Virus record (IMG/VR): IMGVR_UViG_3300022858_000223
Span: 1 to 36,950 of that record
Strand: one strand, 5' to 3'
DNA from: a virus
Lineage: Duplodnaviria > Caudoviricetes
Length of the DNA stretch: 36,950 nt
The notes under the pieces were generated by a model, which ran no database searches, was not told the DNA's origin, and was given only the letters and a program-made list of their open reading frames with translations. Shown here in pieces: positions 30-34,308 of this stretch. Numbering within the stretch: the first letter of the stretch is position 1; each line of letters begins with the position of its first letter. Made by a program: the position numbers and the translations under genes.

Positions 30-590
30 TTAAAGAATCTCAATGCCACTTTCTTTTAAGGCATCTAAAGATTTCTTACTAATTTTAATTGTTACTTTTT
101 CATCTTCTTCTAAATCAAGTTTGAAGTCAATAATACTTTCAACAACTTCTTTATCAAATTCAGGAATTTCAGCTAATTGTTTCCATTGTTTTGTAGTTAC
201 TTTTTTCCATTCATCTGACCAACTATTTTTATTTAATTCCAATTTCAAATCTTTTAGAATTTCTTTTACAATTTTATTAATTTCATTCCACCTATCTTTT
301 GTAACAGACTTATTAAAGACGTAACAATTTTTCTGATAACCAATTCCTTTAGATTCATATTTTCCTTCTCCTAAACAAAATATCATTTTTTCTGACATTT
401 TTAACCCTCCAGAATACTTGCAGGAATCGCAGGAATTGCAGGAATCGCAGTAATTGCAGTAATTGCAGGAATTGCAGAAATTGCAGGAATTGCAGAAATT
501 GCAGGAATTGCAGGAATTGCAGGAATTGCAGGAATTGCAGGAAACGCAGGAATTGCAGTTAATTAAATTGTTTGAATTTTTATTTTCCAT
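30..590 (-). CDS. Cys-x-x (CNS) tripeptide-repeat protein, predicted beta-solenoid N-terminus
   Basis: 16 consecutive CxX triplets (CNSCVSCNS...CKY) followed by a globular C-terminal region. Confidence 0.85.
   Translation of the reverse strand: MENKNSNNLINCNSCVSCNSCNSCNSCNSCNFCNSCNFCNSCNYCNYCDSCNSCDSCKYSGGLKMSEKMIFCLGEGKYESKGIGYQKNCYVFNKSVTKDRWNEINKIVKEILKDLKLELNKNSWSDEWKKVTTKQWKQLAEIPEFDKEVVESIIDFKLDLEEDEKVTIKISKKSLDALKESGIEIL
414..558. repeat. 9-nt tandem repeat (GGAATTGCA-like) encoding the CNS repeats
   Basis: Directly visible tandem units, inside the 30..590 CDS. Confidence 0.9.
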
Positions 591-681: not shown

Positions 682-735
682 TATCTCTTATTAATTATTT
701 ACTTAAATCTAATGGGGTGCTTTGCCTCGTCCACC

Positions 736-808
736 AACTACCCAGCGAGGCTAAGAGACACATAATGTGTTTCGTTCCTGCGAACTCATCAGTCTTAGAC
801 GGGTAGCC
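736..808 (-). ncRNA. Hammerhead ribozyme, type I (core 751..798)
   Basis: Minus strand reads CUAAGA-CUGAUGA-GUUC(GCAG)GAAC-GAA-ACACA(UUA)UGUGU-C-UCUUAG: full consensus core with three perfect stems. Cleavage is predicted after GUC, between 757 and 756. Stem I extends via GGCUACCC/GGGUAGUU. Confidence 0.95.
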
Positions 809-860
809 TAACGTTCCTATTCACAACACCCCTAATAGGACTCAGATTTCAATAAACAAC

Positions 861-975
861 TAATCTCAACTCGCTAGAGGCTACCACACAATGTGTGGTT
901 CTAAGTGGAAGGAGGTGAATCCTTGTTAGGAGGTTTAGTCCTTTAAAGAACAATTCCTATAACGAGTTGGGGTTA
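861..975 (-). ncRNA. Putative structured RNA with two CCUCCU (anti-SD-like) motifs
   Basis: Closing stem 867..876 with 960..969; internal hairpins at 883..899, 909..924 and 928..942; no sizeable ORF. Strand assumed from operon direction. Confidence 0.55.
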
Positions 976-1060: not shown

Positions 1061-1237
1061 TTAATTAGACCAAGACCCAGACCGAGACCCAGACCAAGAC
1101 CCAGACCGAGACCCAGACCGAGACCGAGACCAAGACTGAGACCAAGACCGAGACCCAGACCCAGACCAAGACCAAGACCGAGACCCAGACCGAGACCCAG
1201 ACCAAGGTGATAAACTATAAGTATTAATCAAAAACAT
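1061..1237 (-). CDS. 58-aa (W/R/G)-Ser dipeptide-repeat peptide, RS-domain-like
   Basis: Manual translation MFLINTYSLSP-WSGSRSGSRSWSWSGSGSRSWSQSWSRSRSGSRSGSWSGSRSGSWS-N. ATG lies 3 nt after the upstream stop; below the ORF-track length cutoff. Confidence 0.75.
   Translation of the reverse strand: MFLINTYSLSPWSGSRSGSRSWSWSGSGSRSWSQSWSRSRSGSRSGSWSGSRSGSWSN
1067..1204. repeat. 23 tandem hexamers (minus strand NGG-TCT, one CAG-TCT)
   Basis: Directly counted: 7 W, 8 G, 7 R and 1 Q codon, each followed by TCT. Confidence 0.95.
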
Positions 1238-1240
1238 ATC

Positions 1241-1552
1241 TTACCATTTTAATTTATAAAATGATTCAATAGCTTGACGCATTACATAACAATTTTTTGG
1301 AAGTTTTTGCTTATCATCTGCTGCTTTAGCATCATATTGTCCAGTTTCAAATACTACACTAGCATCTTCTAATTCAATGTAAGTACCATTAATTGATTTA
1401 ACTTTTCCGTGATAAATGTATCTAGCACATTGAAAAAGATAAGTTTCTCCAATCAAATCTTCTAAATTATTTATCTCTTTTACTTGGATTTCAGACCCAA
1501 GTTGGTCTTTGATTTTTTCGAGTGTTTCATCACTCACTTCGATTGTTGGCAT
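1241..1552 (-). CDS. Sm/LSm-like (SH3-type small beta-barrel) protein
   Basis: Sm1-like pattern LEDLIGETYLF...YHGKVKSINGTYIELEDA and Sm2-like CYVMRQAIESF. Confidence 0.6.
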   Translation of the reverse strand: MPTIEVSDETLEKIKDQLGSEIQVKEINNLEDLIGETYLFQCARYIYHGKVKSINGTYIELEDASVVFETGQYDAKAADDKQKLPKNCYVMRQAIESFYKLKW

Positions 1553-1936: not shown

Positions 1937-2341
1937 TTATTTAATTTGTTTATATAAATTATTAACAATAAAACTAAATTTCTCAGCTACCATTTCTCGT
2001 TCATTTTCTATATAAATTGGTTCAACGTATCTTGAATGAGCTAATTCATTAAATTGCCAATCAATTATATGCCAAGCCTCGTGAAGAAGATAAAGTCTAA
2101 TATAATTAAAATCTTTTTCTTCATATAATTGTCTACCTCCTTTTCTAACAAATAAAGTTATTTGATTATAAGGATAATGAGATTTAATACTAAAAGTTTT
2201 TTCTTCATCTTCACTATCAGCTTCTTGTTCTTCATAAATTACAGTTATTTTATAGCTTTTTAATTGACAAATATCTAAAATAACATTTGAAAAATAATCT
2301 GCAAACCATTTTAACATTTCTTTTTCTTGTTTTTTATTCAT
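1937..2341 (-). CDS. Small zincin-like metallopeptidase (HEXXH)
   Basis: LLHEAWH followed by a downstream Glu helix (EREMVAE). Confidence 0.6.
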   Translation of the reverse strand: MNKKQEKEMLKWFADYFSNVILDICQLKSYKITVIYEEQEADSEDEEKTFSIKSHYPYNQITLFVRKGGRQLYEEKDFNYIRLYLLHEAWHIIDWQFNELAHSRYVEPIYIENEREMVAEKFSFIVNNLYKQIK

Positions 2342-5427: not shown

Positions 5428-5835
5428 CTATAATAGCTTCTTCTGTTTAGATTGACTTAGACGTGCCTTTATTATGTTTATATATTCTTCTTCTCGTTCT
5501 ATTAGTATGAAGTCCCGCCCTGTATTCTGACACGCTACTCCTGTTGTACCTGAACCCGCGAACGGATCGAGGACACATCCTGAGTCCTCAACATTACACG
5601 CCATACGGTGTTGAGTTCTACTACCTGCAAATATAAGGGCAGTACCCCCTGGTTTTAACACCCTTAGACATTCCTGCCAAATAGCTACACTAGGCACATC
5701 ATAGTCCCATTTCTTACCCATAAAGCTAAGACCATAGGGTGGGTCAGTTATTATGGTGTCGACAGAGTTGTCAGGTAGCTTATCTAATTGTATTATGCAG
5801 TCTCCGTGAATTACTTTATTTATTAGGTCTTTCAT
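5428..5835 (-). CDS. N6A/N4C DNA methyltransferase (beta class) with large internal deletion; possible pseudogene
   Basis: DPPY catalytic motif and VLDPFAGSGTTG SAM motif are both present, but only 135 aa; central region missing. Confidence 0.8.
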   Translation of the reverse strand: MKDLINKVIHGDCIIQLDKLPDNSVDTIITDPPYGLSFMGKKWDYDVPSVAIWQECLRVLKPGGTALIFAGSRTQHRMACNVEDSGCVLDPFAGSGTTGVACQNTGRDFILIEREEEYINIIKARLSQSKQKKLL

Positions 5836-33554: not shown

Positions 33555-33659
33555 ATGAAAAACTATTTAAAATCAGACCCAGACCCACCAGTCATTGTCT
33601 TGGTTTCAATTCTAATAGTGATAACGATTGGTTTAGTAATTTACAATCGTTTACAATAG
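33555..33659 (+). CDS. 34-aa single-TM peptide
   Basis: Manual translation MKNYLKSDPDPPVIVLVSILIVITIGLVIYNRLQ. Confidence 0.55.
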   Translation: MKNYLKSDPDPPVIVLVSILIVITIGLVIYNRLQ

Positions 33660-33956
33660 GTGTTTACAATGTTCATTCTATAGGTTTACAATAGTCACTT
33701 GCCAGTTCAGCCTTGTCTGGACTTATCAAAATAAGAGTGCAGTTAGGCTCCTTGTAGGTACCCCCATACAAATAAGGAGCTGAGCTGGGAGGTGATTACA
33801 ATGTTCATTTTAGGGGTTTACAATAGTCATTTCCCAACTTAATTTCTTTGACGGAATCGTGGGCGAAAAGTAGTTTAAGCCACGACCAGCGAAATTCTGG
33901 GTGAAAAAACTAGAAACTATGTTTTAAAGGAATTAAGTCTGGAGGTGATTACTATG
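33659..33956 (+). ncRNA. Two tandem repeat-delimited structured RNA units with stem-sequestered GGAGGTGA
   Basis: ~50-nt imperfect direct repeat at 33659 and 33791 (partial at 33944). Closing stems pair 33692..33711 with 33779..33798, and 33824..33850 with 33925..33951; many G-U pairs favour the + strand. Confidence 0.7.
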
Positions 33957-34145
33957 GACAATGAATGTCTCTGCGAGTTTGCCTCTAGTTGCCCGATTCA
34001 CCAAGACGGACAAGGATGTGTGCTAAAGCACAACCGCATCTGGGTGATGAATTGTAGCGAGTGGCAAAAGTTTGACGAATCGGCGAACGCCACAACAAGA
34101 ATAGAAAGGAAAGTGTTAGTAGCACAAGACGTAGGTTGCGACTGA
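33954..34145 (+). CDS. 63-aa Cys-rich protein with a strong SD
   Basis: GGAGGTG 6 nt upstream of ATG 33954; CLCEFASSCPIH...C...C; GC-richer than neighbours. Confidence 0.6.
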   Translation: MDNECLCEFASSCPIHQDGQGCVLKHNRIWVMNCSEWQKFDESANATTRIERKVLVAQDVGCD

Positions 34146-34164
34146 CGCAAGTTCTTTAAGCTCT

Positions 34165-34236
34165 TGGGATGGAGCATATTATGAAAACCAGCTACGGGGA
34201 CAAATCCGTAGGTCAAATTCAAAAGGCTCCCTCCCA
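34165..34236 (+). ncRNA. Structured element upstream of the lysin
   Basis: TGGGA-T-GGAGC pairs GCTCC-C-TCCCA, enclosing hairpin CTACGGG/TCCGTAG (34192..34211). Confidence 0.5.
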
Positions 34237-34308
34237 CCCTTTTCTTATGAAACTACTACTACAAACAATTGACCATATCAAAGGTATCTTACGATTAATT
34301 TTTACATT

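What the first reader, a model, noticed from the sequence alone, without database searches (positions are those of the whole stretch)
714..840. Consensus hammerhead ribozyme embedded in competing structures, possibly a switchable cleavage site
Seen: a perfect type I core at 751..798 with a GUC site. Stem I can extend (801..808 with 736..743) across a CCUCGC bulge that could contact loop II (GCAGG). The same 3' bases can instead form hairpin GCCUCG/CGAGGC (724..751), which excludes the extension. An upstream hairpin (815..821/834..840) displays GGGGUG in its loop, complementary to CACCCC at 714..719, so a long-range pseudoknot could clamp the ribozyme. Inference: cleavage is conformationally regulated and separates upstream genes from downstream early genes.
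Basis: partly seen in the sequence, partly recalled or inferred. Interest (0 to 1): 0.8.

Follow-up and report, generated by a model that had tools for sequence, protein, structure and literature searches.

The report
Twin-knotted phage RNA with embedded hammerhead
The self-cutting hammerhead RNA motif is really there, but its flanks are not rival folds of a switch: they are predicted to form one two-fold, doubly knotted RNA structure shared by dozens of unrelated phages, which likely holds both cut pieces together and likely works as a small RNA in its own right, of a kind found in no library searched.

Summary
The type I hammerhead is real (minus strand, 751-798, GUC, predicted cut 757/756; 0 of 200 shuffled windows give one). 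It is an ordinary phage hammerhead. The switch reading fails. The 'rival' helices use different bases, and all eight helices of 705-849 fit together.

The flanks form a reciprocal double pseudoknot: each of two hairpin loops pairs, over 7-8 bp, with the tail of the other hairpin. I found 46 members in unrelated phages and prophages. All four helices are kept in 46 of 46, with freely changing letters. The hammerhead is an optional arm: inside the knot in 27, directly 5' of it in 10 (a circular permutation), absent in 9, some of which are 85-nt cores beside or between tRNA genes. In 33 of 37 the cut lies 7 nt before a knot hairpin. Neighbouring genes are not conserved.

Most likely this is a portable, stand-alone phage small RNA that nicks itself and stays clamped by 30 bp. 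A role in trans as a two-site decoy is my inference. No Rfam family or paper searched matches; earlier notes of this scan saw a sister subfamily. No cleavage or expression data exist here.

The parts
705..849 (-). Whole element: closing helix + reciprocal double pseudoknot + hammerhead arm (145 nt)
   Evidence: Eight disjoint helices; best parse in the window, 61 against next 54; 3 of 3 differences in variant L113 are structure-compatible
842..849 (-). Closing helix P0, 5' strand (pairs with 705-712)
   Evidence: 8 bp; G.U is A-U in L113; closing helix of 5 or more Watson-Crick pairs in 18 of 36 non-5' members, shuffled mean 7.4, 0 of 2000 reach 18
815..840 (-). Hairpin H1 (834-840 with 815-821); loop carries pseudoknot strand X
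   Evidence: same letters found by pattern in L003, L023, L108, L118, L120, L122, L037
825..832 (-). Pseudoknot strand X (loop of H1), pairs with the tail of hairpin H2 at 714-721
   Evidence: 8 bp; X helix 103 of 105 cells paired in 15 members with 12 distinct strands
801..808 (-). Tail of H1 (Y'), pairs with the loop of H2 at 736-743
   Evidence: 8 bp; Y helix 104 of 105 cells paired, 14 distinct strands
751..798 (-). Type I hammerhead ribozyme as one arm of the knot (stem I 793-798/751-756; core 786-792; stem II 782-785/774-777; GAAA 770-773; stem III 766-770/758-762)
756..757 (-). Predicted cleavage site, 3' of C757 (GUC)
   Evidence: By analogy with the hammerhead consensus (PMC10085705); not tested
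725..750 (-). Hairpin H2 (746-750 with 725-729); loop carries pseudoknot strand Y (736-743)
   Evidence: G-C is G.U in L113
714..721 (-). Tail of H2 (X'), pairs with the loop of H1
705..712 (-). Closing helix P0, 3' strand

Best explanation
Bases 705-849 of the minus strand hold a type I hammerhead motif set as one arm into a conserved RNA module whose two hairpin loops are each complementary to the other hairpin's tail; the module is predicted to fold as a single doubly knotted structure, the hammerhead would nick it once at 757/756 while the two pieces would stay paired, and the released RNA likely acts on its own, in trans, probably as a two-site decoy for a host RNA-binding or RNA-cutting protein. 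Steps: (1) SHOWN in sequence: eight compatible helices, covariation, optional hammerhead, variable gene context. (2) INFERRED from the intact core: constitutive self-cleavage giving a 2',3'-cyclic phosphate and a 5'-OH end 7 nt before hairpin H2. (3) INFERRED: the pieces stay clamped by helices X, Y, stem I and P0 (30 bp). (4) INFERRED: the RNA is cut out of longer transcripts by processing of closing stems or flanking tRNAs. (5) SPECULATIVE, about 0.3 on its own: the pseudo-two-fold core binds a dimeric host defence or RNA-decay protein.
For: Single fold: disjoint helices. 46 of 46 members keep H1, H2, X and Y, and a loop pairs with its own tail at 6 or more of 7 positions in only 1 of 92 cases. 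Tool count on a MAFFT alignment of 25 sister-subfamily sequences: 89% of cells paired, 19 of 24 pairs with two-sided change, 0 of 500 shuffles, slid controls 53% or less. Window's own subfamily (15 members): partner shuffles average 66 of 105 cells against 103 and 104 observed, 0 of 20000. Stand-alone gene: 9 of 46 lack a hammerhead; about 85-nt cores fill the spacer between two tRNAs in L122, L324 and a 101-nt one in L297; copies lie antisense to flanking genes in L207, L237 and L406. A 205-212-nt cassette is 95-98.5% identical between a T7-like lytic phage and two unrelated E. coli prophages. Cleavage under selection: all 37 hammerheads match the core pattern, one through the U3-A8 covariation reported by Perreault 2011. 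The cut lies 7 nt before a module hairpin in 33 of 37, and a tRNA 3' end lies 4-6 nt before the first hairpin in five members. Long closing stems: 10-21 bp in nine members; predicted -23 to -27 kcal/mol in L405 and L280.
Against: No cleavage, structure-probing or expression data: four RNA runs covered nothing in 564-1055. The nested MFE of 705-849 lacks the hammerhead; stem I pair probability is 0.10, and enforcing the hammerhead costs 2.1 kcal/mol (the program cannot score pseudoknots). My parser picks the best pairing, so its paired-cell counts are inflated, and it reaches 59 by chance in GC-rich coding DNA. The 46 include close relatives and were found with biased patterns. A model of the sister subfamily does not detect the window's element, so common descent of the two subfamilies rests on shared architecture and intermediate members only. 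No partner protein was found: RtcB in 2 of 42 records, TROVE in 2 of 42. Why a nick is kept in 37 of 46 yet absent in 9 is unexplained. The window's copy sits between same-strand genes, which fits a cis role equally well.
Confidence: 0.5

Rival explanations
1. Cis-acting transcript protector: the hammerhead cuts the polycistronic RNA, and the knot plus the 5'-OH and cyclic-phosphate ends would shield or staple the neighbouring mRNAs against exonucleases.
For: Always outside annotated long genes, often upstream of a same-strand ORF; in the Q-holin late leader of an E. coli prophage; fixed 7-nt distance from cut to hairpin; Perreault 2011 proposes processing of prophage transcripts by hammerheads.
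Against: Copies wedged between two tRNAs or antisense to flanking genes have no attached mRNA to protect; neighbours are not conserved.
Confidence: 0.2
2. The knotted core is itself a catalytic RNA (a new self-cleaving or ligating class), with the hammerhead as a fused neighbour.
For: Small, doubly pseudoknotted, found with hammerheads and tRNAs in phages; invariant G-C next to a frequent U.G pair at the same end of both knot helices in the window's subfamily (30 of 30 and 20 of 30); a pistol-like piece in L003 (by eye) and a weak twister-sister match in L055 lie close by.
Against: Few unpaired positions are shared by both subfamilies; a second ribozyme inside a ribozyme looks redundant; no Rfam ribozyme model fits the core.
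Confidence: 0.12
3. Natural allosteric ribozyme: the two-fold core binds a ligand or protein, and binding gates the grafted hammerhead. This is the version of the reader's regulation idea that survives.
For: Fixed graft geometry in both permutations; short 3-5-bp stem I in 21 of 37 hammerheads, which may need the knot to form; weak nested folding of the hammerhead in context.
Against: 9 of 46 copies have no hammerhead to gate; no conserved downstream gene class; no ligand clue.
Confidence: 0.1
4. The flanks are only a peripheral scaffold that speeds up the hammerhead, like the stem I/II contacts and pseudoknots of other natural hammerheads.
For: Helix Y extends stem I across an internal loop, and the HH9 model aligns over this part in L241; pseudoknot contacts raise hammerhead rates (PMC3088659).
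Against: The module persists intact without any hammerhead; none of its helices involves loop II; 106 of 113 sampled phage hammerhead-pattern matches have no module.
Confidence: 0.05
5. One reading: mutually exclusive pairings turn cleavage on and off.
For: A nested-only folding program returns alternative folds and an MFE without the hammerhead.
Against: No base is shared between the supposed rivals; all four helices are co-conserved in 46 of 46 with covariation.
Confidence: 0.03

Closest known systems
Type I hammerhead ribozymes of phages and prophages (Rfam RF00163, HH9 RF02275; Perreault et al. 2011, PMC3088659)
   Same: Full core, open stem I, GUC site, phage intergenic location. About 520 stretches of IMG/VR hold a general type I pattern; 112 of 113 distinct sampled matches fold as hammerheads.
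   Different: The described pseudoknots join stems I and II of the ribozyme. Here the knots lie wholly outside loop II, form a separate two-fold module, and occur without the ribozyme. Only 7 of 113 sampled matches carry it.
Permuted hammerheads and HRIMA motifs (Eckert et al. 2023, PMC10085705)
   Same: Natural permutation of an RNA architecture; pseudoknot-rich RNAs found beside ribozymes.
   Different: There the hammerhead blocks themselves are rearranged. Here the hammerhead is a standard type I (CGS) and the surrounding module is circularly permuted. Letter search of the supplement found no window-subfamily motif.
Type III antitoxin pseudoknot RNAs ToxI and CptI (PMC4627078) and phage mimics of them (PMC3475682, listing only)
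   Same: Small pseudoknot units that act in trans on proteins; repeated units; a precedent for a phage RNA decoy.
   Different: Antitoxins are tandem H-type knots closed within each repeat, cut by their toxin and encoded upstream of it. Here each loop pairs only with the other unit's tail, and no conserved protein gene is adjacent.
Phage tRNA-array RNAs: GOLLD and ROOL (PMC5737381), Y RNA-like YrlA, T4 species 1 and 2 RNAs
   Same: Structured non-coding RNAs lying among phage tRNA genes; L367 has the module about 25 nt after a Y-RNA-like match.
   Different: No Rfam match to these over the module; T4 rnaC and rnaD do not parse as the module (scores 39 and 0); the core is only about 85 nt.
HDV-like/theta ribozymes, pistol, twister, c-di-AMP riboswitch, phi29 pRNA (topologies recalled from memory, not from a call)
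   Different: No Rfam model of any of them hit the module in seven scans. As recalled, their strand orders differ from hairpin-tail-arm-hairpin-tail.

Membership tests
Type I hammerhead ribozyme | CUGAnGA, GAAA and NUH around a three-way junction | tested here: met
Type I hammerhead ribozyme | Stems II and III closed by loops, stem I open | tested here: met
Type I hammerhead ribozyme | Reaches an Rfam hammerhead gathering score | tested here: not met
   HH9 20.8 bits against 52; nothing at gathering. Other clear phage hammerheads also fall short of RF00163's 34 bits (28-31.5), so this limits the Rfam label, not the class.
Type I hammerhead ribozyme | Stem I / loop II tertiary contact | tested here: inconclusive
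   No conserved Watson-Crick contact seen by eye; non-canonical contacts cannot be tested
Type I hammerhead ribozyme | Mg2+-dependent self-cleavage after C17 | not testable with these tools
   No raw reads cover the site
Conformational RNA switch | Mutually exclusive helices sharing bases | tested here: not met
   no base used twice; 46 of 46 co-occur
Conformational RNA switch | Conserved link to a regulated gene class | tested here: not met
Type III antitoxin RNA | Tandem repeats, each an intramolecular H-type pseudoknot | tested here: not met
   Own-tail pairing 1 of 92
Type III antitoxin RNA | Cognate toxin gene directly downstream | tested here: inconclusive
   Downstream ORFs vary or are tRNAs; the window's 30-590 ORF has no Pfam or PHROG hit; members' ORFs were not scanned for toxin families
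Any Rfam 15 family (for the knotted module) | Covariance-model match over the module | tested here: not met
   over the element only hammerhead models and chance-level hits (mir-8186 E 0.5 in L053; partial Bp2_287 E 2.8-6.4 in L346)
Sister subfamily seen in earlier scan notes (lambdoid late-leader cassette) | Same four-helix reciprocal topology and 7-nt hammerhead graft | tested here: met
Sister subfamily seen in earlier scan notes (lambdoid late-leader cassette) | Detectable sequence homology to the window's element | tested here: not met
   Model R1 gives no match at 705-849 at E up to 5; weak partial hits to L237, L241, L067, L207 (E 0.007-0.16)

The most novel reading that the evidence does not exclude
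The twin-knot is a two-fold, two-site RNA receptor that phages trade as a cassette: it binds a host immune signal or dimeric defence protein, and where a hammerhead is grafted at the fixed 7-nt position, binding gates the cut. That would make it an RNA-only anti-defence sponge and a natural allosteric hammerhead.
Probability: 0.1. Interest if true: 0.92.

Novelty: categorically new. Interest (0 to 1): 0.68.

Why it matters
The hammerhead alone is ordinary. The module around it is a compact, pseudo-symmetric RNA architecture with reciprocal loop-tail pairing, natural circular permutations and an optional ribozyme arm. It occurs in phages of Actinobacteria and Proteobacteria and in many uncultured ones, and it is absent from Rfam 15 and from the searches listed. 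What phage hammerheads are for is an open question (PMC3088659 calls their functions unclear). For about 6% of them (7 of 113 sampled) the answer may be that they mature or nick this RNA rather than divide operons. The question is directly testable: the 85-nt core suits probing and crystallography, and cultured carriers exist on laboratory hosts (Mycobacterium phage Gaia on M. smegmatis, Arthrobacter phage Constance on A. globiformis), with copies in 15 of 5426 E. coli genomes. The score is held down because function is unshown, earlier notes of this scan already describe the sister subfamily, and unread candidate-RNA supplements may list it.

Tried and rejected
Expression: the run search gave five RNA runs with 6-7% of words. 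Four were laid; cover was almost all on the W/S/R repeat ORF, from other organisms, with none over 564-1055, so there is no evidence either way.

Prokaryote genomes: the window-subfamily pattern gave 7 loci, none a member. blastn of window-subfamily modules against cultured phages found nothing useful (one chance hit in 74). One Achromobacter phage hit did not parse (score 42).

A first loose descriptor matched random DNA often and was dropped for a strict one (8 distinct hits, all members; it missed 4 known members) and a scored parser with controls.

Link to the Sm-like gene or to the Cys-rich gene 30-590: no hammerhead folds in 15 homologous loci, best parse 55 or less.

Link to RNA repair or Ro60: RtcB 2 of 42, TROVE 2 of 42, YrlA 4 of 42 below cut-off; no control set was run, so this is read only as 'not general'. 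T4 species 1 and 2 RNAs: no.

My first reading that Gaia's hammerhead was dead was wrong: its core is the U3-A8 covariant.

tRNA adjacency is 5 of 9 without hammerhead against 4 of 37 with (Fisher p 0.008). I treat it as weak: members are not independent, and ARAGORN missed Gaia's annotated tRNA-Ser 5 nt upstream, which makes 5 of 37.

A promoter scan found no convincing promoter or terminator at the element.

Literature: ten full-text searches showed no description of the module; the letter search hit two unrelated papers.

Full report
1. Observation. The window is a 36,950-base virus record with terminase, major head, primase and helicase genes. The finding lies on the minus strand, between a W/S/R-repeat ORF (1061-1237) and a Cys-rich ORF (30-590). 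The hammerhead is exactly where stated: 751-798, stems of 6, 4 and 5 bp, full core, GUC, predicted cut 757/756. It is the only one in the window, and none of 200 shuffled windows gave an equal. Rfam gives a weak HH9 match only. With an extra closing helix (842-849/705-712), eight helices occupy disjoint bases, 102 of 145 nt. A nested-only program prefers a fold without the hammerhead; the hammerhead-enforced ensemble is 2.1 kcal/mol higher, and the program cannot add the crossing helices.

2. What the flanks are. A pattern for the hammerhead found an unrelated phage (L003) in which hairpin H1 follows the ribozyme instead of preceding it. Patterns on the letters of H1 alone and of the hammerhead alone then gave more copies. 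All share one order: hairpin 1 with loop strand X, tail Y', an arm, hairpin 2 with loop strand Y, tail X'. X pairs with X' and Y' with Y. All 7 distinct folded hammerheads carried it. In 15 members of the window's subfamily, 103 and 104 of 105 cells pair, with 12 and 14 distinct loop strands; dealing partners anew gives a mean of 66 and never reaches the observed value in 20,000 trials. These counts come from a parser that seeks pairing, so I controlled it. Members scored 54-68; 2 of 300 shuffles reached 54; among 113 hammerhead flanks 7 scored 55-68 and the rest 49 or less. In GC-rich coding DNA chance scores reach 59, so the score alone is not a test there.

3. A sister subfamily. One of those seven (L196) matched cultured phages: Arthrobacter phages Constance and Karkharias, Mycobacterium phage Gaia, M. 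abscessus (pro)phages, Enterobacter phage SDFMU_EhYP, and Pectobacterium and Dickeya phages, and 15 of 5426 E. coli genomes. A loop-letter scan gave 120 loci and 102 distinct matches; 27 parsed at 54 or more with the anchor in a loop (the scan stopped at 27 of 64 parts). Of 29 rows at 50 or more I dropped six before counting: two bad parses (L391, L368), two partial parses (L330, L336), two duplicates (L389, L307). Exact or near copies of other members were not counted either. On a MAFFT alignment of 25 of the 26 non-5' sequences (L374 left out as a near copy), 89% of cells pair, 19 of 24 pairs change on both sides, no shuffle of 500 reaches this, and slid controls fall to 53% or less. One pair (the end of Y) is mostly unpaired in that register (6 of 25). 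The structure was read from one of these sequences, and kinship inflates such tests. A model built from this alignment does not detect the window's element. The two subfamilies therefore share architecture, helix lengths and graft geometry, with intermediate-looking members, but common descent is not shown.

4. Anatomy of the family (46 members, some closely related). All keep the four helices, and a loop almost never pairs with its own tail (1 of 92), so the swap is obligatory. The hammerhead is inside the knot in 27, directly 5' of it in 10, absent in 9. The two hammerhead forms are circular permutations. In the 5' form the second arm is a hairpin. In the inside form that hairpin is opened into a closing helix (5 or more Watson-Crick pairs in 18 of 36 non-5' members, shuffled mean 7.4). 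All 37 hammerheads match the core pattern, including a U3-A8 covariant in Gaia that Perreault 2011 reports in nature and cites as active. The cut lies 7 nt before a module hairpin in 33 of 37. The minimal core is about 85 nt; in L122 and L324 it fills the spacer between two tRNAs. Context is otherwise free: intergenic, tRNA arrays, a Q-holin late leader, antisense to head genes. A 205-212-nt cassette is 95-98.5% identical between a T7-like phage and two unrelated prophages. Variant L113 differs from the window at three positions, all compatible with the structure, yet has other genes on both sides.

5. Mechanism. Shown: compatible, covarying helices; an optional but intact ribozyme; fixed geometry; mobility. 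Inferred: the RNA folds into one structure and nicks itself at 757/756, and the pieces stay joined by 30 bp, so in this phage the cut would not free the two halves of the transcript unless they are unwound. Copies with no attached mRNA argue for an RNA that works by itself, released by tRNA processing or by cleavage of long closing stems. The latter idea came from an earlier scan note; I tested it only as a predicted stem. Its two equivalent halves suggest a two-site binding surface, and phage RNA decoys have a precedent in type III antitoxin mimics. I give 0.5 to the stand-alone, self-nicking, clamped RNA, and about 0.3 to the decoy role specifically. Rivals: cis protection of mRNA ends 0.2, a new ribozyme 0.12, ligand-gated hammerhead 0.1, mere scaffold 0.05, switch 0.03. 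Against my reading: no expression or cleavage data, no partner gene, and no account of why the nick is common yet dispensable.

6. Comparison. The hammerhead is a new member of a common class (about 520 stretches in IMG/VR for one pattern). The module matches no Rfam 15 family. It is not T4 species 1 or 2 RNA and fails the repeat test for type III antitoxins. Papers seen: PMC3088659 (passages, sections 6 and 8, 11 supplements searched by letters with no hit); PMC10085705 (parts 2-4 of 8, supplement searched by letters); PMC4627078 (passages); PMC5737381 (passages; supplement unreadable); PMC10690425 (listing; six supplementary files searched with no hit, files 1, 2 and 4 not searched); PMC3475682 and PMC4201824 (listings only). 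Theta, pistol, twister, RAGATH, c-di-AMP and pRNA comparisons are recalled. The unread files could list this motif as an anonymous candidate. Seven earlier AI notes of this scan, read after I had derived the structure, describe the sister cassette in lambdoid late leaders. They agree but are not independent support. The window's own sequence found no such notes.

7. Verdict. The ribozyme is ordinary and the switch is very unlikely. The real finding is a portable, pseudo-symmetric twin-knotted RNA, here in a subfamily and permutation not noted before in the look-ups made, and testable in vitro and in cultured phages. Novelty: categorically new as an RNA architecture, subject to the unread supplements. 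Interest 0.68.

Noticed in passing
window 1061-1237 (-) and 1241-1552 (-): A 58-aa ORF of W/S/R/G repeats follows a 103-aa ORF with only a weak LSM/Hfq-like lead. Similar repeat words occur in 5 of 6 homologous loci, and similar repeats reach very high contig depth in four RNA runs from other organisms. A possible Sm-like plus RS-repeat gene pair.
   Followed up: partly
window 30-590 (-): 186-aa protein with an N-terminal C-x-x repeat (CNSCNS...), no Pfam or PHROG hit; relatives in 10 viral loci.
   Followed up: partly
window 860-910 (-): Small hairpin 70 nt upstream of the element (z -1.7); not shared with variant L113.
   Followed up: no
window 5428-5835 (-): 135-aa DNA methyltransferase that matches both ends of the family profile and looks internally shortened; a 301-aa relative lies directly after the module in L113.
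   Followed up: no
window 33620-34300 (+): Long, mostly non-coding stretch with repeated TTTACAAT words and GGAGGTGATTAC repeats; possible origin or regulatory region.
   Followed up: no
L120 1004-1088 and 1345-1499: One contig carries a window-type module without hammerhead and a sister-type module with hammerhead, about 250 nt apart around a tRNA-Glu.
   Followed up: partly
L207 and L237: Module plus hammerhead lie antisense inside what looks by eye like a group I intron interrupting a major capsid gene; Rfam did not call the intron.
   Followed up: partly
L153, L176, L189 (after the hammerhead): Type I hammerheads directly 5' of another unnamed RNA of about 110 nt that ends in ACCA, in tRNA arrays for L176 and L189.
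   Followed up: no
L233, L232, L177, L188: Hammerheads placed directly 5' of tRNA-like genes (L233) or of a further unnamed structured RNA; hammerheads may make 5' ends of phage RNAs generally.
   Followed up: no
L003 about 2050-2100 (-); L055 1363-1433: A pistol-like fragment upstream of the hammerhead (by eye) and a weak twister-sister match downstream of the module (27.6 bits).
   Followed up: no
L367 and L324 records (G018, G017): The only two TROVE-bearing records of 42 both hold hammerhead-free modules, one right after a Y-RNA-like gene.
   Followed up: partly
Alignment A2: Many sister-subfamily hammerheads open stem II with an extra A on each side, and the two inter-hairpin linkers may pair with each other (CUR with YAG).
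   Followed up: no
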